Assembly: GCA_029548865.1 (NCBI GenBank)
Contig: JAKPMO010000015.1
Location: 80,445 to 144,444, forward strand
Direction: 5' to 3'
DNA: 64,000 nt
From: Caldisericota bacterium
GTDB lineage: Bacteria; Caldisericota; Caldisericia; JAAYUI01
Part shown: piece after piece, positions 31,114-61,391 of the stretch
Position numbering within the stretch: the first letter of the stretch is position 1
How the letters are laid out: the number at the start of each line of letters is the position of its first letter
Made by a program: the position numbers and the translations under genes
Notes under the pieces: model-generated
The model's database searches: none
Seen by the model: the letters and a program-made list of their open reading frames with translations, nothing else
Told to the model about the DNA's origin: nothing

Positions 31114-31556
31114 GTGGATTATATTAGCAAACCAGATGGCCCGGTCAACGTTAACCTTATATATACACTTTTGTAACCTTTATATCCCCATTGTGTTGCA
31201 TTCAACCCTCAAGTGCGATATAGTCTCAAATAATACCGTATCAAATGATTTAAATGGCAGGACCCATTTGTCCGGTCAGCGAGAAAAAGGCCTAAAAATG
31301 CAACACATCAACCGTGGCATGGGAATTGCATGATAACAAAACGGTGATGATCAATAGGTGTGAGAAAACATCTTTTGATTGTCATGTTGTTTTTATAAGG
31401 AGTTGGATTTATATGGTGCTTTGATGAAGTCACAGATTCATGGTGTGGCTTCGTTTGGTTTTGCGCACTTTGATTCATTCCTTGTGCGTCCATGCGTTGG
31501 TGGCTTTGCGAACGCCGCAAGCCGCTTTTGCAACAAATTGAAAGGAGAGTTTGGTG

Positions 31557-34500: not shown

Positions 34501-37500
34501 AGGGTGAACCACGCAATCTCAACAACATGCTCTTCGAGATCACTCCAAACCGCCCAACAGCCGAATTTGAATTTACACCTTACAGGGGTTCATGTGACGA
34601 GACCGGCAGGGCCGATCGTCCAGGTTCCTCTTATGGTCTTATTACCACCTACGTCATCAGAGACAACGGTGGCCAGAGACCAGCACCACCAGATGGTTAT
34701 TATGGTGACTACTTCTGGGATCTCCATGGCATGTCATCCAACCAATTCGTCGGAAAAACCTTCAAGGAGCGCGTAAAAGGTCGCTTTGTTCCGTGGGCAC
34801 AGGACAACTTCTACCATCCAGAAGGAAATCTCCCATATCCTCCACTTCCTGCAGACCTCCAGAACAACTATGATTGCTTCGACGTGTTCTATGACAAAGT
34901 AAATCCAGAAAAGCTCGTTCTAACAGCCAACAGACTTTGTATTACCACACTTGACCAGCGTTTCCCGAACGTCTCAATCAAGCTCACCGATGCTGATAAT
35001 GAGAATGATGTCAATGATCCAGCAGGTGTTCCGTTCTCCATCCCGTTTGATCTTACCGCAAGGCAGTATGAAGGTTTTCATGCCAACATAGTTAATTATA
35101 ACTGCAATGGCGGTGGAATTGCTTGGATGGCAGTAGCAGTTCCAGCAAACACCTCAGCGCAGCACAAATTTATTGTTCAGTACAACACTGATGGCACTTA
35201 CTATTATTGGTACTGGTACGAGCCACCGCAAAACCCGATAGATACTCAGTATCCACAGGTACCGTGGGCACTCGACCCCAATGATTACCTTCTTGGTGAA
35301 GAGTACACCGGAACCTTCCCGATACCAAATACCACTGCAATCAAGAAAACCCCAGTCTTCGTTGACAACAGGGTATCACTCGAGGACATTGATTGCTCCC
35401 AGGGAACTGGAAACTGTGATGTTTGCGAGGTTCCAGGACTGAGGAAGCTTGGCGACATCACTGGTTATGTTGGGTATCCACTCCGTTCAGACCGCATTGG
35501 AATCTTTGATGGTACATTCGGATACATTGTTAAGTATGGTGTCCCAACCTATGTTACTGGCTATGGTCAGGTAACACCGTCTGATACAGGCGGAGAGTGC
35601 CTCCTTGCAGTCAAGCCGAAAGATGGTTCAACACACCTCAATATCCGTATCTACTCCAACATGACAACCTTTGACTACAACTCGACCATTGCACATCCAG
35701 CAATCACCAATGGTGGACCATTCTTTGTGTACGACAAGATGATCAATGGTTCATATCATGAGGGCATTGATTATTGCGGAACCCTCGATATGAAGGTTTA
35801 CCCACCAGATCCATACGTCAACTTTGCAGAGTTTACAATTGTTGACCACGCACTCCAGTTCTCTGATGTTCATTACACCGCTGGAACAACAACTGCTAGA
35901 TATCTTGGACCGCTTTCACCACTCAATATTCCAACTCCACAGATCCAGGCCCCGTATGATCCAATCCTTCGCTATGTCTCAACCGAATTCAGGTGCTATC
36001 CTGGTGGACAGACCCACGCCGGCCGTGTTACTGGTCAGGTTTGGGGTGGAAGAGGCGGACCATTTGGATGGAACGCATACCCAGCAATATGGAGCAAGAA
36101 GATGAATGAAAGGCTTACCAACGAACAGTTTGGCAAGCTTGGAACAGAGTTCTTCCCGCTCACTGATTATGGTTTCTACTTTATCGTTAAAGATGGCGAA
36201 GGCCGCCACCTCTCCTTTAATCCTGACTGGGAAATTGACAGAAGAATGGTCAGGATGGAGATCGTTGGACCATTTGCACGTCCAAAAGTTATAGACAGAA
36301 CCACTGGCTCTGTTACCACCCAGTATGAATACAATGGCCTCAAACAAGTCCCGATCTCGTATGATTGGACAGGGAAGATCGTTATCGACCAGACCAACTA
36401 CAAGGACTTTGAATATCAGGAAGTCAGGGCAGACTGGAATGGTGATGCAGGATCAGATCCGTTCACACCATATCAAGGAATCCCGAACGAAAACCGTCAG
36501 TACAGGAAATCAAATGATCTTATAAAGAAGCTCCATAACCTCAATTTCTCATCAGTAGGCTATGGAACACCAGTTGGCCCAGGCATGGTTGAGAACACCG
36601 ACAATGTTATCGTTGTTGACGAACTTATTCCATGGCAGCCAGGCAAGATACTCATCTATGTCACCTTGGCAGATGGTACCTTCAAGATGTATCAGGATTG
36701 CTGCACTGCACCGCCGGTTGATGGTGTTGATGTGCACGCTCTTGGCATTAATTATGTCATCTCCGATGACCCGGCAATAAGGAATGCACCGCTTGGAATA
36801 GACAACAAGGTTGAAGTCACACTCTCAGAGAACCAGCCGATCCAGACCAATAAAGAGTGCAATGATGCAGTTGTCTATATTTGGCAGGACAGGGGTGTCC
36901 AGAGAGCTGGTAAGGATCTTATGTTTGGTGCTGGCGATGGCTGGATCACCAACCCACCAGGATCAACAAGGTTCTACTATGGCAGATCAGATGGAAGCAG
37001 CTCCCAGTATGACACAACATGGGACAATGAACCGATAGATGTTAACGGAGACTCAAAGGTAACATTCAAAGATTGGGAAACCGAAATCTGCGGAAGCTAT
37101 GATATGGCAACAAATACCTGGAATGCTGGTATCATCGATGCTCGTACATTCCAGCGCAACAATGGCATCTATGTGTTTGAACTCACCGATTCCAACAGGT
37201 GTCGCGTTGAAACCTCAGGTCTTGATTTTGGTGGTGAGGAAGGCATTGGCGATCCACCAGACCATATCATTTCTGATAAAGAACTTCTCCCGCTCTATGT
37301 AACAGCATACAAGTATGGCGATGATAACAACGACAGGGCATTCTCACCATTCTGGGATCCGTCTCCTATGCAGGACACATACCAGCAGTCGAACCCATCA
37401 GCCAACAGAATGAGATACAGTCACGAAGTTTATCTTGCCGGCCAGATTGCAATTCCGGTCGAGCCGCTTGATGACCTCATTGTCACTGTTGCTTCACCAA

Positions 37501-40500
37501 AACTTCTTACAGCAGGTATCACCCCTGAACTCATCTCCCCAGACACACCACTCACATTCGAAGTCAAGAATGCAGAGGGTGGAAATGTTGACCTCTCACA
37601 AGGCATCAAGGACGTCTACAATGAAAACCTGGTCAAGGAAGACCACATCTGGAATTACCTCTTCAAAGACCCATACATTGATGACTTCTATTACTATGGA
37701 CCAGGCTCGTCACTACCACAGTACTTCTTTGTCAGAACCAACCTGCACAATAGAGACCTCGGTGTTGACAATAACGAAGAGCTCTTCTCTGTCAGGACCC
37801 TTAATACCAGCACATGTGATGAAACAATCTCCATACCATTCCGCCCGATCAAGGTTGATTTCTCACAGGCAAAGAATGGCAAGTATATCTTCAGAGGTTT
37901 CTGTGCCAACGACGTCACCACATGGAAGGGTGAAGAAGGCTCGCCAGACGAAGAGAAGTGGCTCAAAGACCACCAGTTCATCGTCCATGTTTATACACCG
38001 GACCGCAAGCACAGAGGAACTGTTGTAGTACCAATTGAATCACCAAAGGTATCATATGAAATCGTCAACGCCGAAGACCCGAATCTCACGTTCTACTCTT
38101 CACCTGGAGACCCGGACTTCGTAATGACCGCTGGCGACAACCGCATGTACAAAATCAGAGTCACAATCACTGATGCAGAAGGTCGCCTTGTAAAGGGCGT
38201 CACAAAGGGCGTCTCGGTTTGTGGTGGCGGTGTCAAGAACACAGCAAGGTTCACTCCATTTGTAACCAGGCCGGACAGCTTCGACTTCGATTTCAACCCG
38301 TGCCAGGGAACACCATGTGGAACAAAGATCTACCCACATGTTGGATTTGATTTTGATGCTTCAGAAAAGAAAGACGGAATCACAAACGCAATTGACCCAG
38401 GTAATAAGGAACTCTACCAGTTTGGTGGATTCACACTCAACACAAGGCTTGAGTATCAGAAGTGCCGTGACAGAGTTGAGAGTGGATATGTTGAGTACAA
38501 CTCAACCTGCTATTGGTACAGAGACAAGAACGAATGGGAAGTTGACTATGTGAACCCGAAAGACCCGACCCTTAAGGGCTGGGCAATCAACAAGAGAATC
38601 CCACCAAACCTCGAGTTCTCGCTCACTGGAGCATCCGAGCCACTCGCAAGAGGTTGGGGACTTGGAAATATCTACAACTATCCATACTGGGGTGGTGCAC
38701 TGTTTGCAGACATCGACTCCAATGGCGAGCTTGACTATCACGATGCACTTGGTCTTGATGTCAATGCACAAACAGAGTTCTTCCTCTTCGCAGAGGACGC
38801 ATGCTTCGTTGGCGGACTTGTCGGTTCCAACACTTACGTCAACAGCCGCAATGAGGCTGACGTGGCCGGATATCCACCAAGGTTCAGGACTGATCCAAGG
38901 GAAATCCAGAGAAGATTCAAGTACACAGTATCCAATGACCAGACGTTCTATCTTGACTGGGAAGCTTGGCCAGACCATGTTGCTCAGGTTGCCCCGCCAA
39001 AGGTCAAGGTGCTTGATGCATCAACCGGAAACAGGGAAGAAATCGGCAAGGAATTCCTCAACGGCGACAACTATGATCTTATTTACAACTGGGCCAACCA
39101 GCTGATCTGCGAGATTAGGCCAGCCGATGAGAGAGACGTCCCGATGCACCCAGATGGGTACATCATGATGGTTGGCAACCAGCATGAGCAGGCAGTCTAC
39201 GGCAGGACAAAACCATCGGCCGAAGACGAAAAAGTCATGGAAACCACAATTGAATTCACACCAACAGGTCTTGGTGAAGCAACCATCAATATGTTCTATC
39301 TCCAGAAGAACAAGTATTTCTGCGCAGGTTCAGATGTTTGCAACCAGGTCATAAAGATGGTTAAGCCTGAGTTCTATGGCGTGAAGGTGCAGAAGTTTGA
39401 TGTTGGCAAGGGACTTGAGATTACAGCAGAGACAATCGAAGATCTTACACCAAAAGCCAATGGCAAGATCTTCATCACAGTCAAGGAATATGGTGCCGGT
39501 GCACCAGTTGCAGGCGCAAAGGTAAAAGTTTCTGGCCTTGGCGTTGATCAAACCAAAACAACAAACGGCAAAGGCGAAGTTGAGATCGAAGTTGCTCCAA
39601 ATGCAACAGGGTTCCTCAAGATTGAAGCAACTGCAGACAACTTCAAGGGATCATCAACAAAGATCATGGTTGGTTCAGACAAGACCCCACCAATGCTCGA
39701 AATCGATCCAGTTGTTCCGATAACCAACAAAGACGAAGTGCAGATCACTGGTACTACTGAAAGTGGTTCCACAGTCACAATCAATGGCAAGCCAGCAACC
39801 ACAAAGGGCGACAAGTTCACTGGAACTGCAAAGCTCCAGAATGGCAAAAACACAATCGTAGTCGTCGCAACTGATGGTTCGGGCAATACCACAACAAAGA
39901 TGGTCTACGTAACCCTTGACAAAGAGGGTCCGGCCATCATGGTTGATGCAGTTGGTGAAAACAATACCGTATATGGAAAAGACTCAATCAAGCTCAAAGG
40001 CAGAGTTGATGCTGATTCCAAGGTTACCGTAAAAGACATGTCAGGTGCAGTTGTTGGCGAAGCCACCGTTGTGCACGATATGTGGATCCTTGACAATGTA
40101 AAGCTCGCTCCAGCCCCAAGCAAGAACGAGTTCAAGATTGAAGCCACAGATCTCGCTGGCAACACCAGCTCGGTCATGGTCACAATCACCAACATTGACA
40201 GGGTCATCATGACACTCAAGCAGGGTGACGTGAACGCAATGGTTGGCAACACACCAAATGCTCTCCCACTTGCTCCAAAAGGTACAGAGTTCTCGACACC
40301 AGTCGATTTCATCAAGCTCCTTGGTGGAACAGTGGATTTCAATCCGGCAACAAATACTGTCCAGATACAAATCAACAGCCATACACTCATTGCAACAATC
40401 GGATCAAACAAGGTCCAGATTGATGGCAACGAGAAGACAATCCAGTCAGCCCCAACGCTTTCCGGCAGCCTGGTGGTTGTCCCGGCAGTTGACATCTGCG

Positions 40501-40574
40501 CCAAAATGGGTCTTGTAACCCAGGTAAATGATGCAGACAAGACAGTCATGATAATCCTCGACAGGAAACCCTGA
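31557..40574 (+). CDS. Giant secreted protein (about 3005 aa), paralog A: Cys/Trp/Tyr-rich body, EF-hand-like Ca loops, C-terminal Ig-like repeats and a copper-amine-oxidase-N-terminal-type (stalk) domain
   Basis: ATG at 31557 after the RBS AAAGGAGAG; the track's TTG is at 31551. Signal peptide MKKTISILIATLMLMTVLPVFGNASMARA. The C-terminal 110 aa match the Cu_amine_oxidN1 fold pattern. Ig-like repeats TVTINGKPATTKGDKFTGTAKL..ATDGSGNTT. Long collinear blocks are shared with 45846..55082. Confidence 0.8.
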   Translation: MKKTISILIATLMLMTVLPVFGNASMARAENSNANGVFVAVRFEASGWRFSGNSHVTMPNQEIIWGRPPQYPMPANIHAWTEFYLDVVPAAGMSTESNHWYAVIDTDGNLWFDSDGNFHDCRYYKYADPEDPDYGTDAASTIDNCQTNPHARFDPTSANNTQGPYQVPRGNNISGAIGAITPFSKSANPTYFMDPKTGRTFRIGIADLVARNSGVVGTSWINPATGNPLVSNPAPEWDQGMALERFLDGYGPGAPPVPPAEPVPNVYYNIGGYFYLNNLDSWNFGEEWHAVNATGNREMGPFDGIHDNQQTYVEGDWIYRRGANGANNLVSGYDYTQTGAGGQASFPHYYGDTRLVPVVTQNVLGRVIRYPAGSAVRDRAPFSTRDAGDDFDVGTPCYRFPLSDTNFSAFGNPPVSLSGNAWPGSTVGDTVHLQLTWGVNGMFDYTTVISPSGTISIAEGIYEKGLDGMRANTVEQYDLRLSHWSTGAEAFLTNPTAYIQPGDALIMSEVLTGGCASPVYNISIETDLWQGVVPSKTMAAIRTPNGEVTFQAQNIQKATVLGPNSQTFAVPACSFENIKLDYREYLGVEIWYDDGVDNNIGADGVNRCLPNNGSDDYVPGSVGELFLGCQDNIADTDIGLGMDAIFGRVTDQAVLPMSDFYQQDPVGNPNFGAPVRFFDTNNAQGGGYGIINYYGCGEALYRDIDYLLAATTGGLGAFEISPGDVRLSDVTVVRRDPITGAQTIISYEAGSTVAQGDADVNLRPGTGPNVLYHPGVVADYVGGNDLSAFYDKYYDIQEYNAYVAGWSFPNPYEPVFLDWKHLDPSDATKWIPLNNQYDLGEFIYDAGPNIETNGWTYAGSIVTAYGNVQDGFIRLTNVSYAGQYYKCGTVCSIYDQWRTNAPVYGITFGNNGDKRFMDMEVIPGSAGATMTVSKPFQVEQTSHVKITLDPAPKAGHWDGNTWIPDERGYVLFQGIGKYEMGKGEPRNLNNMLFEITPNRPTAEFEFTPYRGSCDETGRADRPGSSYGLITTYVIRDNGGQRPAPPDGYYGDYFWDLHGMSSNQFVGKTFKERVKGRFVPWAQDNFYHPEGNLPYPPLPADLQNNYDCFDVFYDKVNPEKLVLTANRLCITTLDQRFPNVSIKLTDADNENDVNDPAGVPFSIPFDLTARQYEGFHANIVNYNCNGGGIAWMAVAVPANTSAQHKFIVQYNTDGTYYYWYWYEPPQNPIDTQYPQVPWALDPNDYLLGEEYTGTFPIPNTTAIKKTPVFVDNRVSLEDIDCSQGTGNCDVCEVPGLRKLGDITGYVGYPLRSDRIGIFDGTFGYIVKYGVPTYVTGYGQVTPSDTGGECLLAVKPKDGSTHLNIRIYSNMTTFDYNSTIAHPAITNGGPFFVYDKMINGSYHEGIDYCGTLDMKVYPPDPYVNFAEFTIVDHALQFSDVHYTAGTTTARYLGPLSPLNIPTPQIQAPYDPILRYVSTEFRCYPGGQTHAGRVTGQVWGGRGGPFGWNAYPAIWSKKMNERLTNEQFGKLGTEFFPLTDYGFYFIVKDGEGRHLSFNPDWEIDRRMVRMEIVGPFARPKVIDRTTGSVTTQYEYNGLKQVPISYDWTGKIVIDQTNYKDFEYQEVRADWNGDAGSDPFTPYQGIPNENRQYRKSNDLIKKLHNLNFSSVGYGTPVGPGMVENTDNVIVVDELIPWQPGKILIYVTLADGTFKMYQDCCTAPPVDGVDVHALGINYVISDDPAIRNAPLGIDNKVEVTLSENQPIQTNKECNDAVVYIWQDRGVQRAGKDLMFGAGDGWITNPPGSTRFYYGRSDGSSSQYDTTWDNEPIDVNGDSKVTFKDWETEICGSYDMATNTWNAGIIDARTFQRNNGIYVFELTDSNRCRVETSGLDFGGEEGIGDPPDHIISDKELLPLYVTAYKYGDDNNDRAFSPFWDPSPMQDTYQQSNPSANRMRYSHEVYLAGQIAIPVEPLDDLIVTVASPKLLTAGITPELISPDTPLTFEVKNAEGGNVDLSQGIKDVYNENLVKEDHIWNYLFKDPYIDDFYYYGPGSSLPQYFFVRTNLHNRDLGVDNNEELFSVRTLNTSTCDETISIPFRPIKVDFSQAKNGKYIFRGFCANDVTTWKGEEGSPDEEKWLKDHQFIVHVYTPDRKHRGTVVVPIESPKVSYEIVNAEDPNLTFYSSPGDPDFVMTAGDNRMYKIRVTITDAEGRLVKGVTKGVSVCGGGVKNTARFTPFVTRPDSFDFDFNPCQGTPCGTKIYPHVGFDFDASEKKDGITNAIDPGNKELYQFGGFTLNTRLEYQKCRDRVESGYVEYNSTCYWYRDKNEWEVDYVNPKDPTLKGWAINKRIPPNLEFSLTGASEPLARGWGLGNIYNYPYWGGALFADIDSNGELDYHDALGLDVNAQTEFFLFAEDACFVGGLVGSNTYVNSRNEADVAGYPPRFRTDPREIQRRFKYTVSNDQTFYLDWEAWPDHVAQVAPPKVKVLDASTGNREEIGKEFLNGDNYDLIYNWANQLICEIRPADERDVPMHPDGYIMMVGNQHEQAVYGRTKPSAEDEKVMETTIEFTPTGLGEATINMFYLQKNKYFCAGSDVCNQVIKMVKPEFYGVKVQKFDVGKGLEITAETIEDLTPKANGKIFITVKEYGAGAPVAGAKVKVSGLGVDQTKTTNGKGEVEIEVAPNATGFLKIEATADNFKGSSTKIMVGSDKTPPMLEIDPVVPITNKDEVQITGTTESGSTVTINGKPATTKGDKFTGTAKLQNGKNTIVVVATDGSGNTTTKMVYVTLDKEGPAIMVDAVGENNTVYGKDSIKLKGRVDADSKVTVKDMSGAVVGEATVVHDMWILDNVKLAPAPSKNEFKIEATDLAGNTSSVMVTITNIDRVIMTLKQGDVNAMVGNTPNALPLAPKGTEFSTPVDFIKLLGGTVDFNPATNTVQIQINSHTLIATIGSNKVQIDGNEKTIQSAPTLSGSLVVVPAVDICAKMGLVTQVNDADKTVMIILDRKP

Positions 40575-44516: not shown

Positions 44517-44957
44517 CTAGTTTGTACGTTTTTGGCTCTGGTATGTGACCTTTGTCTGGCCGTATTCGGAATATATTTTTACCGAGAGCCATAACCCCTC
44601 TCTGAAAGCAACCAGTTGCGCCATACCAAACTCTTTGTTTATGAATGAGCTTTGGACCTCAATTTTCCAGCCCATTGTTTTTAGCTCACGATTGAGGGCC
44701 ATATATACATTACTATAGTCATCTTGCGTTTTGAGGCTCCCATTGAAGGTTGGAGGGTATGAGTTTTCAATATATATCCCGGCTACGGGATCAATCTCCG
44801 GGTTACTTGGTACAGGATAAATTGATGGAATATCGTCTATACTTTTGGTTATTGACAGGGATTTTTGGTATATTTCCTCATTGTTTATTTGCTGAATGCA
44901 AGATACCAATGATAGTATTGATAACAATATTATTATTGCAAAAGTAATGCGTTTCAT
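44517..44957 (-). CDS. Small lipoprotein
   Basis: The likely start MKRITFAIIILLSILSLVSCIQQ (signal plus lipobox) is at 44957. The track extends upstream to 45059 without support. Confidence 0.45.
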   Translation of the reverse strand: MKRITFAIIILLSILSLVSCIQQINNEEIYQKSLSITKSIDDIPSIYPVPSNPEIDPVAGIYIENSYPPTFNGSLKTQDDYSNVYMALNRELKTMGWKIEVQSSFINKEFGMAQLVAFREGLWLSVKIYSEYGQTKVTYQSQKRTN

Positions 44958-45130
44958 TACTGGTATTAAAATGCAGTAAAGCTGATCTGTCAATATGATT
45001 AAAATATACAAATATGTATATTTATTACCAATTTCATGGTTTTTATAAATCGTTCCCACTAATGCAAAGGTTGCTCATAGTCAATCAAATGCTGTCTTGT
45101 AGATGATTATTTTGATTGTGAAAAATATTC

Positions 45131-45201
45131 TTATGTGTCATATATGCACATAAGAAAAATATGCCCGGCAGTTGACATGTCTTTACCCTAAATGCTATAA
45201 A
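45131..45201 (+). promoter_or_regulatory. Promoter of the Fis-like gene with an upstream operator-like palindrome
   Basis: Perfect inverted repeat TTATGTG-N9-CACATAA (45131-45153). TTGACA (45172-45177), 18-bp spacer, TATAAA (45196-45201). The ATG is at 45219. Confidence 0.4.
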
Positions 45202-45218
45202 ACCCTTTGAGGTGATAT

Positions 45219-45512
45219 ATGGAAATTCAATCCGACGTTCTCAGTGACACTCTGAAGGCCAGCCTTATAAGTGAAATAGCAAAACATGTTGGTGTCGAGG
45301 AGACCGAAGTAATGCTAAAATCTGTTTCTTTCGATTTTTCAAATGAAACACTTAATCTCAAGGATGTAACAAGAAAGACCATCATAAGGGCAATAGCCAG
45401 GTCCGGTGGCAAAATATCTCATGCTGCAAAACAGTTGGGCATCACCAGAAAAACGCTTTATGCAATGATCAAAAAATACGAACTTGGTTCTATATTACAC
45501 ATACATGAGTAG
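45219..45512 (+). CDS. Fis-family small DNA-binding protein (standalone HTH_8)
   Basis: 97 aa. The C-terminus TRKTIIRAIARSGGKISHAAKQLGITRKTLYAMIKKY is collinear with the Fis / sigma54-activator C-terminal HTH (...[26 protein letters not shown]). It sits 334 bp upstream of giant gene B. Confidence 0.6.
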   Translation: MEIQSDVLSDTLKASLISEIAKHVGVEETEVMLKSVSFDFSNETLNLKDVTRKTIIRAIARSGGKISHAAKQLGITRKTLYAMIKKYELGSILHIHE

Positions 45513-45547
45513 TTGATGCATAATATGTGTTTCATATACTCATTACG

Positions 45548-45572
45548 TGGAGCATTTACTCAAAATGCTCCA
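45548..45572. promoter_or_regulatory. Perfect 10-bp inverted repeat TGGAGCATTT-actca-AAATGCTCCA downstream of the Fis-like gene
   Basis: Read directly. Followed by TTTGCTTG. Could be a terminator of the Fis-like gene or an operator in the giant-gene B leader. Confidence 0.3.
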
Positions 45573-45845
45573 TTTGCTTGATAACCTCCCCTATGGACCC
45601 AAAACGAGAACCTTAATACAAAGTATCGTTGATTGCTAGGTTTTTTCCTGTGGCATGATAATTGCATAATATGACATCGGAGAACCAAACCCTCCAGTCA
45701 TTCTTATTTTTGGTTCTGCTCGTTTCATTTGTAGTAGATATGGACAGTGAGTAATCTTGCTGTTTACTACGCCGCTAGTATTTTTTGCGGCGTTCCGGTT
45801 GCTAGTATTGATGCTACAACCGGTGAATTGAAAGGAGACATTGTG

Positions 45846-48800
45846 ATGAAGAAACTGTTGAGTATTGTGATCGCTACGATCATGGTATTGGGATTCGTCC
45901 CCTTCATGGGCAATCTCAGTACCGCAGCGAACGTAAGCGCTGCCGATGCCACCAACACACCAGCAATCTTCATCGCCAACCGCTGGCAGCCCGTCGGCAC
46001 CAGGTGGAACGGCACAACGCTGGTGGAGGATCGCAACCGTTATTTTAACGGCGTTGGCACTGCTTGGGGCAGGTCGGAATACAAGATGCCAGGCCCAGGC
46101 GCTTACATTGACATCGCTGTTATCGATCCGGCCCGTCCGCTCAGGATTAATGCTACTCCTGACGAAGTAGCCAAGAGGGAACCAACAGGTGTCCAGCTTC
46201 AGCAGCTCACCTCACAACCCCTCTACTGGACCGAGTTCTATCTCACAGTAATACCGGATAAAGGCGCTTCACAGCTTTATGACCACTGGTATGCTGTTGT
46301 TGACAACATGGGACAGCTCTGGTTCGACCCGGATGGCCGTTTCAATGACAGCCGCTATTATGCAGCCGCTGATCCAGAAACCGAGGCCTACAGGGCAATA
46401 ACCGGTGGTTCTGGTTCTGACAACTGCAAGAACAACCCATACATGAAGGTTGACTCGTCCGTCGCCAACAATACTCAGGGCCCATACATCTACATGCCCA
46501 CCGACATCTATGGCAACTTCATCATGAATGGTATTACCAGAAAAGAAGAGTATCCGCTTTTCAACTCAACAGGCCTCTTCTTCCGCACCTCACAGGGCAG
46601 GGTTTTCCAGGTCGGTTTTGTCGACATGCCAGACTTCCCGCTTATCAGGGGCGGCGCATCGCCAATCCAGCTCCAGGGTGTTTCAAGACCCAATATTGAG
46701 CAGATTGGAACCAATCTTGTTGATACAACTGTTGGTCAGACTAACGTAATAACTGACACCACAGTTCTTCCATACACAACCCGCCCAATCCTTGATTGGG
46801 ACCGTGATGATGTTGGCAATGGAATCACTGGACTTCCACTCGTCCGCTTCTTGGATGGTTGGGAAGGTGCTGTTATAAATGCACTTCCACCAGCCCCAAT
46901 TCCATACACCAACCCACCAACAATTACTGTCGGTGCATACTTCCAGACAGACAACGACATCTTTAACTACGGCGAAGAATGGCACTCCGCAAATGTAGTT
47001 ATTGATCCTCCAGACACAACCCAGTTCCCATCACCGGCAATGGACATCTATGATCCAGGTGAATATATCTATCGCGCCGGATTTAATGCCCATAACCTGA
47101 ACAGCCGTTATCCAGCCGGTTACGACTATATGCTCCAGCAGGACATCCAGTGGTACCAGTATTATGGCACCACCCGTCTTACCCCGGTCACAATGTTCTT
47201 TAATGGCCTCTTCTTTAACTATGCACCTGGCACAATCGTTCGTGACAGAGGCCCGGCCAATGGTGGCCAGTATGGATATTATGATGCTGGTGATGACGTT
47301 GATCTCAATGATCCAGCTACTCCAACACAGCAGCACACCCTTTATCGTTTCCCAGTTTCTATGGCGAACTTCTCTGGTGTTCCAGGACAAGTTGCACCGA
47401 TCAATGTTACCCAGTACTGCCAGCTCCATGCTGACAACGTAAACTACAACTCCAATCCACGCTGCGCTTCTGGCGATGACATCTATGACCCATACGAAGG
47501 CATTTATATGAAGTCAGAGACAACTGCAAACGTAGTCTCTGGTGACTATCGTATGACAAACCTTAATGGTAATTCTTATGGTCTTGAGTCATGGCTTGGC
47601 CTTGGTGGTGGCGTTGCTTCCTCACTCTATCCATTGATCATGAAGGTCGGTGGAATGTGGTCTGGTGACGTCCTTATCCTTTCAGAGCTTGTTACTGGCG
47701 GCTGCTCTGCCCCGAAATACAACCTCTCAGTCCAGACTGACCTCTGGCAGGGTGTCATCCCGTCCGAAACCGTTGCTGCACTTCGTTCACCAAACAAAGA
47801 GTTTGACAGGACCGCACAGAATATCCAGAAAAATGCTGTTCTTGACCCAACCGGGACAAAATTTGAATATCCGTCCACAGTCTTCCAGGACATGAAATTT
47901 GGATACAGAGAGTATGTTGGAGTTGAAGTCTTCCGTGACGACAACAAGGACTGCAACTGGGGATATCAGTATGCAGGCCCAGTTCCGCCAGGAGAAAACC
48001 TCTTCATGCTCAACCTCTCCGACGATTATCGCCAGGGACATACTGGTGAAATGCATATCGGTATGAAAGATGGATATGCAGCAAAAGACGTTGGTAGAAT
48101 GCTCACACAGTTCTGGCCGGCAAATGCCGACCCACTCCCGCCAAATGGCCCGGCAACACCAAATGAAATAGGTCCACGCTTCTATGACACAACAAACCCA
48201 GGCGGATGGGGCATTGAGAACTATTACGGTGTTGGTGAATCAATTTATCTTGACAACAATGGCAACTACGAGATCGACGCTGGCGACCTTCGTATGTCAG
48301 ACGTCACCGTTCAGCGTGGCGCTATGGGTTTTGCCGAAATAGTCAAGTATGAAAAGGGTTCATATGTCACCGCCGGTGATGCAGACATTGATCTCTGGGG
48401 AGGCGCGAATAATGACCTCTCAGATTTCGTTCCGATATTGACCAATGGTCGTGTTGTTTATTGGCCAGCATTCTATGATGAGCTCATCGAAGATGTGCTC
48501 AATCCTGGTCATTATCTCCCGCCAAATGGCAAGTATGACATCAATGAAGTTATCTATGATTGCTCTTACAATGGCAGCTCCATTGTTGGCCCTGGATTCC
48601 AGAGGCTCATGGATGTTACCCTTGGTGGAATAGTCTACAAAGCTGGTTCGATTGTTCCAGATCCAGACCTCTGGGTTTACCAGATGCCGATCTATGGACT
48701 TTCGATGGGCTATAACTGCGACTACAACTATGCTGATATGATGGCGCTCCCGGGCAAAACCGGAATGAAAGTCACAATTGACAAACCACTCAAGGTTGAA

Positions 48801-51800
48801 CAGACCTCTGAGATCACAATTGATTTTGATCCGCCACCAAAGAAAGAATATTATGATGACCAGGGCGTTTATCACCCAGAGGAAGTCATTTATGTATTCA
48901 TTCGTAACCTCGGACTTTCCATCCCGAATAACAATGCAACAATAAACGAAATTTACCGCGTAGTTTCAGGCCGTCAGGCACAGGCAAAGTTCCAGTTCAC
49001 ACCATATCGTGGTTCCTGCACCAATGGTGGAAACAACGACAAGCTCAACTACCTCGAAGATTCCAACGAATATCGTGTTAGAATCCGTTCTTTCAGGGAT
49101 CTTGGTGGAACAAACAATCCAGCCCCGCTTGACAGAGACTACAACGATCCATGGTTTGTGCAGAGAAATTCAACTAGCACAGATGCAAGATGGGGACGTC
49201 CATATAAACTAGCCTCTTATGGCGTAAGGGTTAGAAAACCAGAACTTACCCCACCAATGCCATACAATCTTGCAAATGGCTATGACTGCTATCAGGAAGC
49301 CAAGTATGATATTGCACCAGAAGAACTCGACATTGAGCCGTCAGTGGCCTGCTTGCAGACACTTGATCAGCGCTTCCCGAACTTCTCGGTGAAACTCCGT
49401 GATGATGACAACCCAGACGATGTAAATGATCCAAACGGAATCATGGTTTCAGTGCCACTTACTGGCGACACCAACGTTGACCCGATCTATGGTCGTGAGC
49501 AGTATCTCATCTCAACATACAATGCCCATGGCGGCGGTGTTGATTGGATCGGTACAGCAATTGATGACAACCCAGGCCAGGCACGCAGACAGTACATTGT
49601 CCAGGTCAACACAGACGGTTCATACCTCTACTGGTACTGGCTCGAGCCGGTTAACCCAGCAGGCAATGACAGATCAAGGCCACAGATTGAAGGAGCCCTT
49701 GATTCAAACGATATCCTTATTGGCCAGGACTTCACTGGAACATTTAACTGGCGTCCAAATGGTGGACCATACATCCCACCAGACCAGAGAACCTGCAGGA
49801 CACCAGTCATCATTAAAGACAAAGCAACATGGTATGATACTGATTGCTCTTCAGCCACAGTTGAAGGCAGGAAGTACTCAAATTGCCAGTCATGCAAGAT
49901 TGATGGCATGAAAGAAATGGGCGATGTCAACGGTCTCCATGTGATGTGGAACGCAGCACGCACCATGACCTCAACAGTTCCAGCAAGACTTTCGTCAGAC
50001 TACTACGGAAGATTTGATGGAGTTGGACCACTTAATTCAACAACAACAGTTGCAGCCTGGATAGCTGGTATCAACCCACCATGGCCAGGCAACCAGATGT
50101 ATCCAAACAGCCAGCTTTGGACAGGCCCATGGGCCACAGGTTATGGCGTGCAGACAGTGGTTACCTCTTATGGCCAGCGTGATGCAAATGATGCTGGTGG
50201 TGAGGCACTCGTCGCAATTCTTCCACGTGATGGATCAAGCCATCTCCTCCTCCAGATGTACACTGTAAACGCACTCTTTGACTACAACTCCTCGATACCA
50301 CATCCATCGACTGGTTCACCATACTTTGTCCTCGATCCAGTCAGGAACCAGGGCATCGATTATTGTGGAACAGTTGACATTAAGGTTTATCAGCCAGACC
50401 CATACGTGAACTTTGCAGAGTGGTCCATTGTTGATCATGGTCTCCAGTATTCCTCACTTAACTACACATCCGGCAATGATCCACTTTCAAGGCTTTCAAT
50501 ACCAACCCCACAGATCCAGACCCCGTACAACCCAGTGCTTAGGACTTCTAAGGGCGAGTTCAGATGTTATCCTGGTGGCCAGACCCACACCGGCCGCGTT
50601 CTTGGCGGTTCCTTCGGAGTAGGTGGAGCCTCAGGCTGGAACTCTTACCCAGCAGTCTGGAAAGAGAAATATTACAAGCTTGGAACTGAATTCTTCCCAC
50701 TCACTGACTATGGTGTGTTCTTCATCCTCAAAGACGGCGAAGGCAACCATCTCTCGTTCGATCCATGCTGGCCAGTTGACCAGAGGATCAAGAGAATCGA
50801 AGTTGTTGGACCATTTGCCCGTCCAAGGGAATGGGATGCAACAACCCACACGGTACTTCCAAAATACAAAGCATGGGGCCTCGAAAACGTTCCGATACAG
50901 TATGATTGGTCAGGAAAGATCGTAATCGACTCCACAAACTGGAAACAGTATGAGTACAGCGGTGTTGACCAGAACGGCAACGGCGTCACCCTTGACTTCA
51001 CAAGGAGATCAGGACTTGTTGGCGATGTCGTTCTTCCGCCAGAAAACGGCCAGCTCCAGTATTCAGGTAGACTCGACTACACAATGGTCGGTGCCTGCTC
51101 GCAACCAGGTGGAAAAGACAACCTCTTTGTAGTTGACGAACTCATCCCATGGAACTGGGGCAAGATCCTCATCTACGTCACCCTCTGGGATGGAACATTC
51201 AAGATGTATCAGGATTGCTGCGTTGCGCCGCCAGTTGACGGAATTGACGTAATAGCCCTTGATATCAAGAATGAAATTGCAGAGGACGTAGAGCGTAAAG
51301 TTGCATACCTCGACAAGCCACAGACCTTCAATGTCAAGCTCCTTGAGCACCACATTGGCGACAAGAAGCACGAAGGCGAATGGTTTGATGCTGAAGGCAA
51401 CGAGATAACATATTGCAATGACGCACTCGTTTATGTGTGGCAGGACAGGGGAACAAAGCATCGCGGAACCGCCAACCTGCTCTTCGGAGCTGGCGATGGC
51501 TGGGCAACCGGAACACCAACTTCCTCAAGGAAGACCAATCTTGCACCACAGTATGAAGACTTCAATGACATCACTGGCCCGAAGGGCGAGCCAGATGGAA
51601 AGATCCGTTTCAATGACTGGGAAACCGAAATTATCGGAACCTATGACATGGCCACCAATACATGGGCAGGCGGTCTCATTGATGGCAGAACCTTCCAGCG
51701 TAACAACGGACACTATCAGTTCAAGCTCGATTCAAGCACCGGTCTTGTTGATACAGTCGGTCTTGATTTCGGTGGCGAGATCATAAATGACAGGGCGGAC

Positions 51801-54800
51801 CACGTAATCGCAAAGAACGAGGTTCTTCCACTTTACATCACCGCCTACAAGTATGGCGATGATAACAACGACAGAGCATTCTCACCATTCTGGGACTACG
51901 ATGCACAGGCACAGCAGAATGCAAACCTGAGAAGGTACAGCCACGAAGTTTATCTTGCTGCCCAGATGGCAGTCCCGGTAGAACCGGATCTTGACCTCAC
52001 AGTTCTTACAACACCAGAGAAACTTACCGCTGGTGTCACACCAGAACTTGTTGATGTCCAGAAACCACTCACCTTCACAGTCACCAAGGGCTCCGAGCCA
52101 GTCAACCTCCTTGACGGAATAGCTGACGACTGGGGCAACAAGAAAGCCGAAGAAGAAGTAGTTTGGAACAACCTCATCCTTGACCCACATCCAGACAACA
52201 CCGACTTCTACGGATTTGATGCAACACTTCCACAGTATTACTGGATCAGAACTGACCTCCAGAACAATGATGGTTCAGCAGTCTGCAATACCCAGCTTTA
52301 CGGTCTCCGCAACACACCAGACACGCCACCAATCATTGCATTCAACCCAATCACCATTGACTTCTCACAGGCTACAAATGGCCGCTACATCTTCAGGGGC
52401 TTCTGCGCCAACGACAACAACCAGTACATGGAGAACTGGGACAAGGGCACCATGAATCCGAACAACTCAAGTGAGGATCTCTGGAAGAGCCAGCACCAGT
52501 TCTACGTAAGGGTTTACACACCAGACCGCAAGCACTCAGGTGAGGCATGGATCAATGTCTACTCACCAAATGTTGAGTACAAGGTCACAAACACTGAAGA
52601 CCCGAACAAGGTAGCCTATGATTCACCAGGCGATCCAGAGTTCATCATGACAGCAGCTGACAACAGAATCTACAAGGTTCAGGTCACCTGCCGCGATGCT
52701 CTCGGCGTCCTCATTAAGGGCGTCACAAAGGGCGTCTCCGTCTGCGGTGGCGGTGTCAAGAACACTGCAAGGTTTACACCATTCTCCACCAGGCCGAAAT
52801 CATTCGACTTCGCCCTCGAAGAGTGCATGAAACCACCATGCTGCACACAGATTGAGCTTCACATTGGTTATGACTTCACTCCAGACGAGAAGATCAGAAG
52901 AGATGATCACGAGCTCTTCCTCCTCTCAGGTTTCAACATGAACCGTTCAGCCAACACCTCATCCTGCTCAGGCTCAACAGCCTCCGCAAGCATGGGCTTC
53001 ATCAGATACAACACCACCAACAAGTGGTATTGGGGCGGACCGAACCCGAATACTTGGGATGTGACCAAGGAAGACGGCGACGAAGTTATCCCATGGGTTG
53101 CTTGGGACCTTCCACCACCAGTCGAAGGCTGGGGCGCTGGTGCCATCTATAACCACCAGTGGTATGGCGGATTCCTCTTCGCCGACATCGACCAGAATGG
53201 CGTCCTCAACTATCACGATGCACTTGGTCTTGATGTTAACGCTCAGACTGAGTTCTACATCTTCGCAGAAGACGTGGCTTACATCGGTGGTCTCATTGGC
53301 GACAACACATACTGCAACGTTCCAGCAAACGCTGACCTTGCAGGCTTCCCGCCATACAATGACAAGACCGATCCAAGATACACCCACAAGAGATTCCGCC
53401 AGGCTTACACCAACGACCAGGTGTTCTATCTTGACTGGGATGCACCGCCAGACAATGTTGCAACAATTGACAGCCCAAGGATCGAGCTCCTCTATGCCGA
53501 TACCAGGGACAAAGTATCAAGAGATTTCCTCAACCCGAACAACTATGATCTTATCTACGGCATCCAGAACCACCTTGTTGCAGTAGTCAGGCCAGCAGAT
53601 GACCGCGACGTTGCCATGAAGGAAGACTCAAGAGTCTATATGTCAGGCAACCAGCATGAAAAAGCAGTCTACGGACACACCAAGAGATCGGCAGAAGACG
53701 CAAAGGCAGTCGAGACGACAATCGAGTTCCTCCCGACCGGTCTTGGCGAGCACACCGCCGAAGTAACCTTCATGTCACCGAACAAGTGGTACCTCAAGGA
53801 TCCATATCAGTTCGTTGTTCCAGAATGGTATTCAATCAGGGGCGGCGGAATGAAGGACAGGAAGAACCGTCCAGCAGAAGAATGGAACCCATGGTATCTT
53901 GATGTAGGCAAGGGACTCGTACTCAGCCTCCAGACAGAGGGAGACCTCTATCCACAGGTGAAGGGTAAAGTTCTTGCCCAGGTCAAAGAAGCAGGAACCA
54001 ATGCACCAGTTGCTGGCGCAAAGGTCACTCTCTCCGGTGCAGGCGTCAATGTTGAAATGACCACCGATGCAAAGGGTGAGGCAACATTCGAAGTTAAGCC
54101 AACCGAGATGGGATTCATCAAGGGTGATGCCACAGCAAAGGACTTCCTCAGGGCAGCCTCTAACAAGGTGAAGGTGTCCAAGGATGCCACAGCCCCGGCA
54201 CTCACAGTTGACAATCCACAGACCCCAACCAACAAGAACAAGACTTCAATTACTGGAACTACAGAGCCAGGTTCAAAGATTTACGTCAATGGCAAAGAAG
54301 TCCAGGTTGGAGCAGACGGCAAGTACAAAGCTGATGTCGAACTCAAAGAAGGCCAGAACGTTATCAATGTTGTTGCCAAGGACGCAGCAGGCAATACAAC
54401 GTCGCAGGTAGTCACCATCGTCCTCGACACCACACCGCCAACAGTCATCCTTGACCCGATTAAGCCAGTTATCATGGAGAAGACTTATGAACTCACAGGC
54501 CGCGTTGAGCCAGGTTCAAAGGTCATCGTTAACGGCAAGGAAGCAACAGTTGTCAATGATTACTTCACAGTGATCGTTGACCTCAAGGACGCTTCTGCAG
54601 CAGCAACAAAGACCCCGGTCAATATTGAAGCAACCGACAAAGCTGGTAACAAGACAACACTTCCAGTCTTCGAGATCATCAATAAGAAGAGGAAAGTTGT
54701 TAAGCTCCAGGTTATGAGCCCAACAATGTATGTTGACGACAAGGAAGTCAATATCAATCCTGCACCATACATCAAAAATGGTGGAACTCTCGTTCCAGTC

Positions 54801-60679: not shown

Positions 60680-60725
60680 GATTTTCTCCCAAAAAGTTGA
60701 ATTTTTTGTTTCTACAAAATGTTTT

Positions 60726-61379: not shown

Positions 61380-61391
61380 ACAAATCTGCGG

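What the first reader, a model, noticed from the sequence alone, without database searches (positions are those of the whole stretch)
45060..45845. Standalone Fis-like nucleoid/regulatory protein outside its usual lineage, with a palindromic operator and repeated 11-mers
The 97-aa ORF is collinear with Fis, which is about 98 aa and whose C-terminal HTH matches almost residue class by residue class. Fis proper is best known from Gammaproteobacteria, and nothing else in this gene set looks proteobacterial. Its promoter (TTGACA-18-TATAAA) is preceded by a perfect TTATGTG-N9-CACATAA palindrome, suggesting autoregulation. The downstream leader contains a perfect 10-bp inverted repeat and two copies of TGCATAATATG (45517-45527 and 45664-45674). 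The gene sits about 14 kb from dnaA and directly upstream of giant gene B.
Basis: partly seen in the sequence, partly recalled or inferred. Interest (0 to 1): 0.55.

Follow-up and report, generated by a model that had tools for sequence, protein, structure and literature searches.

The report
Mini DNA-binder guarding sigma-54 giant genes
A 97-residue DNA-binding protein found only in Caldisericota, resembling the detached DNA-binding end of a sigma-54 activator rather than true Fis, always sits just upstream of a giant cell-envelope gene that here has a conserved sigma-54 promoter, so it is most likely that gene's dedicated regulator.

Summary
The 97-aa ORF (45219-45512), the TTGACA-18-TATAAA promoter, the palindrome (really 10/10, 45128-45156), the 10-bp inverted repeat and the two 11-mers all exist. 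The second 11-mer is at 45663-45673, one base off.

The protein has an HTH_8 domain but fails the Fis model (14.7 bits, cut-off 99). It matches the C-terminal linker plus DNA-binding domain of sigma-54 activators better than it matches Fis. It is a small Caldisericota family of 97-98 aa under strong purifying selection (dN/dS about 0.05).

In all 18 close-family loci and in four loci of two distant members it lies directly upstream of a ~3,000-aa secreted giant gene.

The second 11-mer overlaps the -12 element of a canonical sigma-54 promoter (TGGCATGATAATTGCA, 45651-45666). That promoter is invariant in all 18 close-family loci, 135-139 nt after the stop codon. Giant gene A has one too (31315-31330). 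Both promoters have a similar tandem block about 90-125 nt upstream.

Best reading: a dedicated upstream-site-binding regulator of the giant envelope genes, working with an unidentified ATPase activator. No binding has been shown, and rpoN and the activator were not located.

The parts
45128..45156 (.). Perfect 10/10 palindrome TTCTTATGTG-N9-CACATAAGAA, centred about 66 bp upstream of the inferred sigma-70 start of the HTH_8 gene. Candidate autoregulatory operator of TGTG-N9-CACA type.
   Evidence: The core ATGTG-N9-CACAT is kept in L002 but the outer arms are not. It is not recognisable in the 54-66% relatives. Binding is inferred, not shown.
45172..45201 (+). Sigma-70-type promoter of the HTH_8 gene, TTGACA-18-TATAAA. 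Its spacer holds TTTACCCTAAATGCT (45182-45196), which is 87% identical to 45555-45569 in the downstream block.
   Evidence: repeat D2. The -35 and -10 elements are conserved across the family. The promoter with its spacer is 85-90% identical to L002, although dS is about 0.96.
45219..45512 (+). Gene for a 97-aa standalone HTH_8 protein with an acidic N-terminal half and a basic C-terminal HTH. It is homologous to the linker plus DNA-binding domain of sigma-54 activators.
   Evidence: Pfam HTH_8, 44.8 bits. 17 clusters of relatives, 16 of them 97 aa and one called at 120 aa. AF2 pLDDT 87.8 with four helices. hhalign to an EBP C-terminus E 7.8e-10. dN/dS 0.04-0.06.
45520..45568 (.). Conserved upstream block immediately after the stop codon, with two tandem ~18-bp units 20 bp apart: TGTGTTTCATATACTCAT at 45526-45543 and CGTGGAGCATTTACTCAA at 45546-45563. 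It lies about 90-125 nt upstream of the -24 element, in an enhancer/UAS-like position.
   Evidence: 90-95% identical to L002, while the next 40 nt drop to 45-65%. Conserved columns across 11 loci. 20-nt self-periodicity across lineages. A related block sits in the same register upstream of giant A, P = 0.002.
45548..45572 (+). 10-bp perfect inverted repeat TGGAGCATTT-N5-AAATGCTCCA followed by TTTGCTT. It overlaps unit 2. It may be a weak, lineage-specific terminator of the HTH_8 gene.
   Evidence: -15.3 kcal/mol, z = -5.85. The terminator scan did not call it. The right arm is degraded in L002.
45651..45666 (+). Canonical sigma-54 (-24 GG / -12 GC) promoter TGGCATGATAATTGCA of giant gene B. 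The inferred start is near 45677.
   Evidence: Pattern count of 3 in the window against 0.27 expected. Exactly one match in each of 18 close-family loci, always 135-139 nt after the HTH_8 stop codon. Invariant columns in the 11-locus alignment.
45677..45845 (+). About 169-nt structured 5' leader of giant gene B, ending in RBS GAAAGGAG.
   Evidence: -55.4 kcal/mol, z = -3.4. 85-100% identical to L002. Leader lengths are 133-172 nt in relatives. No consensus structure by RNAalifold. No Rfam match.
45846..55082 (+). Giant gene B, 3,078 aa, with a signal peptide. The C-terminus carries CarboxypepD_reg, Glucodextran_B/Big_6 and Cu_amine_oxidN1 domains. About 2,700 N-terminal residues have no family match. 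Presumed envelope protein and presumed regulatory target.
   Evidence: Synteny with the HTH_8 gene in every locus that reaches that far.
31192..31229 (.). Upstream block of giant gene A, with tandem units TGTGTTGCATTCAACCCTCAA and AGTGCGATATAGTCTCAA. It sits at the same distance from its sigma-54 promoter as the block at 45526-45563.
   Evidence: 25 of 45 identical in register, P = 0.002 by shuffling.
31315..31330 (+). Sigma-54 promoter TGGCATGGGAATTGCA of giant gene A. The inferred start is near 31341.
   Evidence: Together with 45651 it is one of the only two 10-of-11 matches in the window, and both lie in giant-gene leaders.
31557..40574 (+). Giant gene A, a ~3,005-aa paralogue of B with the same C-terminal domains. 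It diverges from dnaA (29818-31113, minus strand).

Best explanation
The ORF encodes a small Caldisericota-specific DNA-binding protein. It descends from the C-terminal linker plus HTH_8 DNA-binding domain of a sigma-54 enhancer-binding protein (EBP), the same origin that has been proposed for Fis.

I propose that it is the dedicated regulator of the giant envelope-protein genes. As a probable dimer, it would bind the two tandem, helically phased sites that start right after its own stop codon (45526-45563) and the related pair upstream of giant gene A (31192-31229). Both pairs lie about 90-125 nt upstream of the -24 element, which is the classical enhancer position.

From there it would promote sigma-54-dependent transcription of the giant genes. 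It could do this by tethering or positioning a separately encoded AAA+ activator, or by shaping the upstream DNA, much as Fis does at rrn P1 and as activator DNA-binding domains do at glnAp2. It would also set its own level through the TGTG-N9-CACA palindrome at 45128-45156 and perhaps through the related motif inside its sigma-70 promoter spacer.

Shown here:
- the domain and its homology;
- purifying selection;
- invariant gene order;
- the conserved sigma-54 promoters;
- the conserved upstream blocks.

Inferred, not shown:
- that this protein binds those blocks;
- the sign of regulation;
- the existence and nature of the ATPase partner.
For: Domain and descent:
- HTH_8 at 44.8 bits.
- Residues 13-89 align with the last ~80 residues of a bona fide Sigma54_activat + HTH_8 protein: probability 96.5%, E 7.8e-10.
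- ZraR is the best PDB sequence hit.
- Fis and NtrC-family DNA-binding domains are the best fold hits.

It is a functional gene:
- dN/dS is 0.04-0.06.
- Length is fixed at 97-98 aa down to 31% identity.
- The recognition helix TRKTLYAMIKK is invariant in the close family.

It is tied to the giant gene:
- The close-family loci that extend far enough share the order giant A, OYE, ABC transporter genes, Band_7, HTH_8, giant B; a few carry an extra small ORF.
- In two distant members the order is dnaA, HTH_8, giant gene.

Sigma-54 promoter:
- 3 matches against 0.27 expected in the window. Two of them are the two giant-gene leaders.
- It is present once in each of 18 close-family loci, at a fixed 135-139 nt from the stop codon.

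Upstream block:
- A footprint of 90-95% identity against a background with dS about 1.
- Conserved columns across 11 loci.
- 20-nt periodicity.
- The same block in the same register at giant A, P = 0.002.
- Motifs shared with the gene's own promoter region, repeats D1 and D2.

Established knowledge used:
- HTH_8 is the DNA-binding domain of most sigma-54 activators.
- Activators without a DNA-binding domain exist: CtcC, FlgR, FleT (PMC3162934).
Against: - No binding data exist. The site model (TGTG-N9-CWCA units) was derived after looking at the data, and the degenerate pattern is not enriched window-wide: 11 against 11.1 expected, and 20 against 17.7.
- The upstream palindrome is not recognisable in the 54-66% relatives.
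- The unit sequences drift between lineages although the recognition helix is invariant.
- No rpoN and no AAA+ activator was found in the 64-kb window, in about 10 kb on either side of the gene in the related loci where the contigs extend that far, or in the 10 kb beyond the window's end. The partner is therefore hypothetical.
- The two distant members keep the HTH_8-giant pairing but have no sigma-54-like motif in the leader. The protein's core job therefore cannot depend on sigma-54. This weakens the tethering version and leaves a plain upstream activator or architectural role.
Confidence: 0.5

Rival explanations
1. Negative regulator. The DNA-binding-domain-only protein occupies the enhancer sites and blocks a full-length activator that has the same specificity, acting as a natural dominant-negative. 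It also represses its own sigma-70 promoter through the spacer motif. This would keep a very costly giant gene off until a signal arrives.
For: - It has the DNA-binding module of an activator but no ATPase.
- Its candidate sites coincide with the enhancer position.
- A related motif lies between the -35 and -10 elements of its own promoter, which is a repressor-type position (D2).
Against: - No paralogous full-length activator was found nearby.
- In the distant lineage the tandem repeats lie in the first ~60 nt after the stop codon, well upstream of the start codon, where no promoter could be assigned. Repressors usually overlap a promoter.
- The acidic N-terminal half is conserved across both promoter contexts. 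That suggests more than passive occupancy.
Confidence: 0.18
2. One reading: a general Fis-like nucleoid-associated protein that bends DNA genome-wide. On this view its position next to the giant gene, and next to dnaA in distant relatives, is incidental or reflects growth-phase coupling.
For: - Its size, its HTH_8 domain and its four helices are collinear with Fis helices A-D.
- Fis chains are the top fold hits.
- The unit sequences are degenerate, like Fis sites.
- The gene is adjacent to dnaA in L019-L022.
- By established knowledge, Fis activates strong promoters from phased upstream sites.
Against: - It fails the Fis equivalog model, 14.7 against 99 bits.
- Fold matches are weak: E about 0.03, TM 0.42-0.58, rmsd above 8 A over the full length.
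- It lacks the N-terminal arm region of Fis.
- Gene order with one target is invariant over deep divergence.
- The family is tiny: about five representatives at 50% identity among 1.84 billion proteins.
- No DnaA-box cluster lies near its candidate sites.
Confidence: 0.12
3. A decaying remnant: the detached C-terminus of an NtrC-type activator pseudogene, with no function of its own.
For: It is collinear with the C-terminal ~80 residues of sigma-54 activators.
Against: - dN/dS is 0.04-0.06.
- It has its own conserved promoter and RBS.
- Upstream neighbours are divergently transcribed genes (Band_7, a lipoprotein-like ORF, or dnaA), with no AAA+ remnant.
- Full length is conserved at 97-98 aa down to 31% identity.
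Confidence: 0.01

Closest known systems
Fis (factor for inversion stimulation) of Gammaproteobacteria
   Same: - About 98 aa and standalone, with a C-terminal HTH_8.
- Four helices roughly collinear with Fis helices A-D.
- A proposed origin from an activator's DNA-binding domain (established literature, Morett and Bork 1998; cited from memory).
- Candidate tandem phased sites upstream of a presumably strong promoter, as at rrn P1.
   Different: - Fails the Fis equivalog model.
- Only 27% identity over 71 columns, with an 11-residue insertion, a 9-residue C-terminal tail, and no counterpart of Fis residues 1-26.
- Restricted to Caldisericota and locked to one neighbouring gene.
- No evidence of a nucleoid-wide role.
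C-terminal DNA-binding domains of sigma-54 enhancer-binding proteins (NtrC, ZraR, NtrC1/NtrC4)
   Same: - The best sequence and profile matches.
- The HTH superposes at 1.0 A over 43 columns on the NtrC1 DNA-binding domain.
- It sits beside tandem sites about 90-125 nt upstream of a -24/-12 promoter, the classical enhancer geometry.
   Different: - It has no receiver domain and no AAA+ domain, so it cannot itself remodel the sigma-54 holoenzyme.
- It is encoded as an independent gene with its own sigma-70 promoter.
Sigma-54 activators that lack a DNA-binding domain (FlgR of Helicobacter, CtcC of Chlamydia, FleT of Rhodobacter)
   Same: They show that ATPase and DNA-binding functions of the activator can be separated (PMC3162934). 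This protein would be the mirror image: the DNA-binding half alone.
   Different: - Those proteins work without enhancer binding.
- No case is known to me in which a separate HTH_8 protein supplies the enhancer contact.
- No such ATPase was found here.
Short 'Fis family transcriptional regulator' proteins (NCBIfam NF002517 / PRK01905, 77 aa) and other standalone HTH_8 proteins
   Same: A single HTH_8 domain in a small protein. These are common in sequence space: 63 of 149 top hits were 125 aa or less.
   Different: - Scores 14.1 bits against a cut-off of 122 for NF002517.
- Its N-terminal 47 residues are found only in the 97-98-aa Caldisericota family.

Membership tests
Pfam HTH_8 (PF02954, Fis-type helix-turn-helix) | Score above the gathering threshold of the HTH_8 profile | tested here: met
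   44.8 bits against a cut-off of 22, residues 48-87 covering profile positions 3-42 of 42. Precomputed PF02954 on all 17 relatives.
Fis proper (NCBIfam NF001659 equivalog) | Whole-protein score above the curated equivalog cut-off | tested here: not met
   14.7 bits against a cut-off of 99; only residues 60-89 align.
Fis proper | N-terminal beta-hairpin arm region (Fis residues ~1-26) that contacts invertases | tested here: not met
   hhalign covers Fis 27-97 only, and the query starts at the equivalent of Fis helix A. The AF2 model has only a 3-residue strand before helix 1.
Fis proper | Intertwined four-helix homodimer fold | tested here: inconclusive
   The monomer model has four helices. 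Fis chains are the top Foldseek hits, but at E about 0.03, TM 0.42-0.58 and rmsd 8-13 A. A dimer could not be modelled with these tools.
Nucleoid-associated protein | High abundance and genome-wide, low-specificity binding | not testable with these tools
   Needs proteomics and ChIP or DAP-seq.
Bacterial enhancer-binding protein (sigma-54 activator) | Sigma54_activat AAA+ domain with a GAFTGA loop | tested here: not met
   No such domain in the 97 aa. No GAFTGA or Walker A motif in any frame of the window or the loci.
Bacterial enhancer-binding protein (sigma-54 activator) | C-terminal linker plus HTH_8 DNA-binding module | tested here: met
   hhalign probability 96.5%, E 7.8e-10, 34% identity to residues 511-591 of a 597-aa Sigma54_activat + HTH_8 protein. 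Partial NCBIfam hits to the C-termini of PEP-CTERM regulator, DhaR, ZraR and LuxO.
Sigma-54-dependent promoter (for 45651-45666 and 31315-31330) | TGGCAC-N5-TTGCA consensus with GG and GC exactly 10 nt apart, upstream of a gene | tested here: met
   10 of 11 consensus positions at both sites. 3 matches against 0.27 expected. Conserved in 18 of 18 close-family loci, with 11 of 11 in L005 and L013.
Sigma-54-dependent promoter | The genome encodes RpoN and at least one AAA+ activator | not testable with these tools
   Neither is in the window or the fetched flanks. Whole MAGs could not be scanned, and the literature search found nothing.

The most novel reading that the evidence does not exclude
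A naturally split enhancer-binding system. The HTH_8 mini-protein would be the free-standing enhancer-recognition subunit, recruiting or positioning an AAA+ activator that has no DNA-binding domain at the sigma-54 promoters of the giant envelope genes. This would also be a second, independent birth of a Fis-like protein from an activator's DNA-binding domain, caught in a state where it still serves sigma-54 promoters. It would further tie sigma-54 to the main envelope (sheath or S-layer-like) proteins of a phylum whose cell envelope is unresolved.
Probability: 0.15. Interest if true: 0.75.

Novelty: new variant of a known kind. Interest (0 to 1): 0.5.

Why it matters
**A test of sigma-54 control of the cell exterior.** Caldisericota are barely studied. 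[quoted passage not shown] Two ~3,000-aa secreted paralogues with cell-wall-type anchoring domains are good candidates for that envelope. Finding canonical sigma-54 promoters in front of both gives a concrete, testable case for the idea that sigma-54 controls the bacterial exterior (PMC3162934).

**A model for how Fis-like proteins arise.** The mini HTH_8 protein is a clean natural example of an activator's DNA-binding module living on as its own gene, under strong selection and locked to one target. That makes it a tractable model for how Fis-like proteins arise. It also bears on whether enhancer recognition and ATPase activity can be supplied by separate polypeptides.

**Annotation.** The JGI name 'transcriptional regulator of acetoin/glycerol metabolism' attached to this family is almost certainly wrong.

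Tried and rejected
- **Known RNA families.** Rfam at a permissive E-value over 44900-46000 gave no match.
- **Terminators.** The consensus scan found none. The 45548-45572 hairpin is stable but is not kept in L002, so I do not treat it as a conserved terminator.
- **Conserved 5' hairpin in the giant-B leader.** RNAalifold gave no consensus. Single-sequence folds are significant in only some lineages. I rejected it as a conserved element, although the whole leader is structured.
- **Repeated 11-mer as a motif.** It is not conserved in L002, so I rejected it.
- **Degenerate site patterns.** GTGNNNCATWTACTCAW with up to 3 mismatches gave 20 matches against 17.7 expected. GTG-N9-CWCAW gave 11 against 11.1 expected. 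Neither is enriched window-wide, so the site model stays tentative.
- **Search for the ATPase partner and rpoN.** I tried motif scans in six frames, Pfam on 43 window ORFs including the focal ORF, and the 10 kb beyond the window end. Nothing was found. The look-up at the other end of the window found no record.
- **Closest activator with a related C-terminus.** P0114 lies in a Firmicute-like origin region and has a degenerate AAA+ domain. It is not a Caldisericota partner.
- **Role at oriC.** DnaA boxes are enriched in the window but cluster at 21.4-31.1 kb, with none near the HTH_8 gene. GC skew is uninformative.
- **Promoter in the distant lineage.** There is no sigma-54-like motif, and the scanner found no sigma-70 promoter on the gene's strand in either leader. 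The promoter type there is unresolved.
- **An internal match.** The complementarity between the recognition-helix codons (45458-45471) and the sigma-54 promoter (I3) is not conserved in L003, so I treat it as coincidence.
- **Literature.** Searches for Caldisericota with sigma-54, rpoN or S-layer, and for standalone HTH_8 at sigma-54 promoters, found no precedent.
Full report
**1. The observation**

- The ORF is 45219..45512 (+) and encodes 97 aa behind a GAGGTG ribosome-binding site.
- TTGACA (45172-45177), an 18-nt spacer and TATAAA (45196-45201) precede it.
- The palindrome is longer than reported. It is TTCTTATGTG-N9-CACATAAGAA, a perfect 10/10, at 45128-45156.
- The 10-bp inverted repeat is at 45548-45572. 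As RNA it folds at -15.3 kcal/mol, z = -5.85.
- The 11-mer TGCATAATATG occurs at 45517-45527 and 45663-45673. The second coordinate was one base off.
- dnaA is at 29818..31113 on the minus strand, 14.1 kb away.
- Giant gene B follows. Its real start is most likely ATG 45846, behind GAAAGGAG and before a signal peptide. This start is conserved in all relatives.

**2. What the protein is**

*Domain and family membership.* Pfam finds an HTH_8 (Fis-type) domain at residues 48-87, scoring 44.8 bits against a threshold of 22. The curated Fis equivalog model gives only 14.7 bits against a cut-off of 99. The short Fis-family model NF002517 gives 14.1 against 122. The best partial NCBIfam hits are the extreme C-termini of sigma-54 activators: the PEP-CTERM regulator, DhaR, ZraR, PrdR and LuxO.

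*Profile comparisons.*
- A profile of the family aligns residues 13-89 with the last 80 residues of a bona fide Sigma54_activat + HTH_8 protein. Probability is 96.5%, E 7.8e-10, identity 34%.
- Against E. coli Fis (sequence entered from memory) the same profile gives probability 64%, E 6.7e-5 and 27% identity over Fis 27-97. There is an 11-residue insertion, and nothing corresponds to Fis residues 1-26.
- Among solved structures ZraR is the best sequence hit, and Fis does not appear at E<=0.01.

*Structure.* The AlphaFold model has pLDDT 87.8. It has helices at 10-24, 47-61, 66-73 and 77-86, plus short strands. Foldseek ranks Fis and NtrC-family DNA-binding domains first, but weakly over the whole chain (E about 0.03, TM 0.42-0.58). 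The HTH alone superposes at 1.0 A on the NtrC1 domain.

*Conclusion.* This is a standalone 'linker plus DNA-binding domain' of the activator type. It is Fis-like in size and layout, but it is not Fis.

**3. It is a real, selected, lineage-specific gene**

- The word-indexed search found 17 clusters at 54-99% identity, 16 of them exactly 97 aa and one called at 120 aa.
- The exhaustive profile search over 1.84 billion representatives added only three more distant full-length members of 97-98 aa, at about 31% identity.
- The five relatives found in the species-genome scan are all Caldisericales or Caldisericia MAGs.
- dN/dS is 0.04-0.06 for close pairs.
- The recognition helix and the preceding helix (GKIS.AAK.LGVTRKTLYAMIKK) are essentially invariant.
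- A pseudogene remnant is therefore excluded.
- Standalone HTH_8 proteins as such are common. 63 of the 149 non-family hits among the 150 listed were 125 aa or shorter. Being outside the usual Fis lineage is not remarkable in itself.

**4. Context: a fixed partnership with a giant gene**

In the close-family loci that extend far enough the order is the same, apart from an occasional extra small ORF:
- giant gene A (~3,000 aa);
- on the other strand, an old-yellow-enzyme gene, an ABC-2 permease, an ABC ATPase and a Band_7 gene;
- the HTH_8 gene;
- giant gene B (~3,100 aa);
- a ~400-aa protein of unknown family.

In the two distant members the order is dnaA (minus strand), HTH_8, giant gene of 3,081 aa. 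That is the position giant A occupies in the window. The pairing of the mini-protein with a giant gene is therefore old.

The giants are paralogues. Each has a signal peptide, about 2,600-2,700 residues with no family match, and a C-terminal series of CarboxypepD_reg, Glucodextran_B/Big_6 and Cu_amine_oxidN1 domains. This fits surface or envelope proteins. [quoted passage not shown] Assigning the giants to that envelope is my inference.

**5.

- The second 11-mer overlaps TGGCATGATAATTGCA (45651-45666). This matches the sigma-54 -24/-12 consensus TGGCAC-N5-TTGCA at 10 of 11 positions.
- The pattern TGGCAYN5TTGCW occurs three times in the window against 0.27 expected. None of 100 shuffles reached three.
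- One match is this site. One is at 31315-31330, in the leader of giant gene A. The third lies inside an ORF and is probably chance.
- In each of 18 close-family loci there is exactly one match, always 135-139 nt after the HTH_8 stop codon.
- L005 and L013 have the perfect 11/11 consensus.
- In the 11-locus alignment the two half-sites are invariant while the flanks average 55% column identity.
- The inferred starts, near 45677 and 31341, give 5' leaders of about 169 and 216 nt.
- The B leader is structured (-55.4 kcal/mol, z = -3.4) and 85-100% identical to L002.

**6. Upstream blocks**

Between the window and L002, synonymous sites are nearly saturated (dS 0.96), so conserved non-coding DNA is informative.

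- Identity is 90-95% over 45520-45568. It falls to 45-65% over 45570-45610 and rises again through the sigma-54 promoter and leader.
- The conserved block begins a few bases after the stop codon.
- It holds two ~18-bp units 20 bp apart: TGTGTTTCATATACTCAT and CGTGGAGCATTTACTCAA.
- Comparable tandem units are visible in the other lineages, including the distant ones. An example is L021, with TTGTGAATTTATTTTCAT / TTGTGAAAATTTATTCCCAT.
- Self-similarity at a 20-nt offset is the strongest signal across ten lineages, with mean z = 1.32.
- Giant A has a related pair at 31192-31229 at the same distance from its promoter. 25 of 45 positions are identical in register, P = 0.002.
- These blocks lie about 90-125 nt upstream of the -24 element, the classical enhancer position. 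This positional comparison with glnAp2-type promoters rests on established knowledge.
- The window's own promoter region carries related motifs. TATGTGTCATATATGCACAT in the palindrome resembles TATGTGTTTCATATACTCAT. TTTACCCTAAATGCT in the sigma-70 spacer resembles TTTACTCAAAATGCT.

Caveats:
- I derived the unit model after seeing the data.
- The degenerate patterns are not enriched window-wide.
- The palindrome is recognisable only in the closest relative.

**7. Mechanism**

The best-supported reading is that this protein is the dedicated regulator of the giant genes. It would bind the tandem upstream units and support transcription from the sigma-54 promoters. It would control its own gene through the palindrome and the spacer motif.

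Sigma-54 holoenzyme needs an AAA+ ATPase (established knowledge), and this protein has none. A separately encoded activator must therefore exist. It may lack its own DNA-binding domain, as CtcC, FlgR and FleT do (PMC3162934), in which case the mini-protein could be the enhancer-recognition half. Alternatively the mini-protein may act architecturally, as Fis does upstream of rrn P1.

I found no activator or rpoN in the window or in the fetched flanks, and I could not scan whole genomes.

The distant members keep the pairing but have no sigma-54-like motif and no clear sigma-70 promoter. The protein's core role therefore does not depend on sigma-54. That favours a general upstream activator or architectural role over a strict tether.

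The main rival is a negative regulator that occludes the enhancer. A genome-wide Fis-like nucleoid protein is less likely, and a pseudogene is excluded.

**8. Comparison and novelty**

The protein works most like the DNA-binding domain of an NtrC-class activator, and it resembles Fis in format. It is a member of Pfam HTH_8 but not of Fis, and it is not an enhancer-binding protein.

I found no report of a free-standing HTH_8 protein dedicated to sigma-54 promoters, nor of sigma-54 control of giant envelope genes in Caldisericota. These were limited full-text searches.

I class it as a new variant of a known kind. The finding is moderately interesting, mainly because the conserved trio of mini-regulator, enhancer-like block and sigma-54 promoter in front of giant envelope genes is directly testable.

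Noticed in passing
window 31557-40574 and 45846-55082: Two paralogous ~3,000-aa secreted proteins. About 2,600-2,700 N-terminal residues match no Pfam family. The C-termini carry CarboxypepD_reg, Glucodextran_B/Big_6 and Cu_amine_oxidN1 domains. Both have sigma-54 promoters and long leaders. They may be the main envelope or sheath proteins of Caldisericales.
   Followed up: partly
window 21400-31200: DnaA-box-like 9-mers are enriched in the window (33 against 17 expected). They cluster between a PEGA-domain gene, parB, hisS and dnaA, including one at the dnaA start codon (31113-31121). This is probably the origin region. GC skew gives no clear switch there; the cumulative minimum is near 55 kb.
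   Followed up: partly
proteins P0018 (2,532 aa), P0019, P0020 (833 aa), P0022 (552 aa), P0023, P0025 from the representative search: Long proteins made of up to 23 tandem copies of an HTH_8-like module (repeats such as ...ALGKSGGDLEKAAQELGI...LI..Y.L...). This is an odd architecture for a DNA-binding domain. Their origin and function are unknown.
   Followed up: no
window 44517-45059 (-), probable true start near 44954: A lipoprotein-like ORF (MKRITFAIIILLSILSLVSC...) lies between Band_7 and the HTH_8 gene. Among the loci examined it occurs only in the window lineage and L002. It has no Pfam match and shares the divergent promoter region that holds the palindrome.
   Followed up: no
window 10843-12225 (+): A 460-aa ORF with a long proline-rich, low-complexity centre and no Pfam match, immediately after a GAF-HisKA-HATPase histidine kinase (8984-10771).
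   Followed up: no
window 55235-56443 (+) and its counterparts in L011, L013, L015, L017: A ~400-aa protein with no Pfam family is conserved directly downstream of giant gene B. In the window it is followed by a YkuD L,D-transpeptidase, so it may be an envelope-assembly partner.
   Followed up: no
window 59672-61949 (-): An ECF-type sigma factor (Sigma70_r2/r4_2) followed by an unknown 213-217-aa protein and a DUF4349 protein. This looks like a sigma/anti-sigma module.
   Followed up: no
L019 10440-10560 and L021 10430-10520: The giant-gene leaders of the distant lineage share conserved stretches (ATACTGATGG..GACAGA.AAGCAAG and CTGTGGACTGC) but no recognisable sigma-54 or sigma-70 promoter. 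The promoter type there is unresolved.
   Followed up: partly
window 45458-45471 versus 45656-45669: The codons of the invariant recognition helix (TTATGCAATGATCA) are 93% complementary to the sigma-54 promoter core (TGATAATTGCATAA). This is not conserved in L003, so it is probably coincidence.
   Followed up: partly
family annotation (P0001, P0008, P0010, P0012, P0013): JGI names this 97-aa family 'transcriptional regulator of acetoin/glycerol metabolism'. The name is evidently transferred from AcoR-type activators through the shared HTH_8 domain and is misleading.
   Followed up: yes
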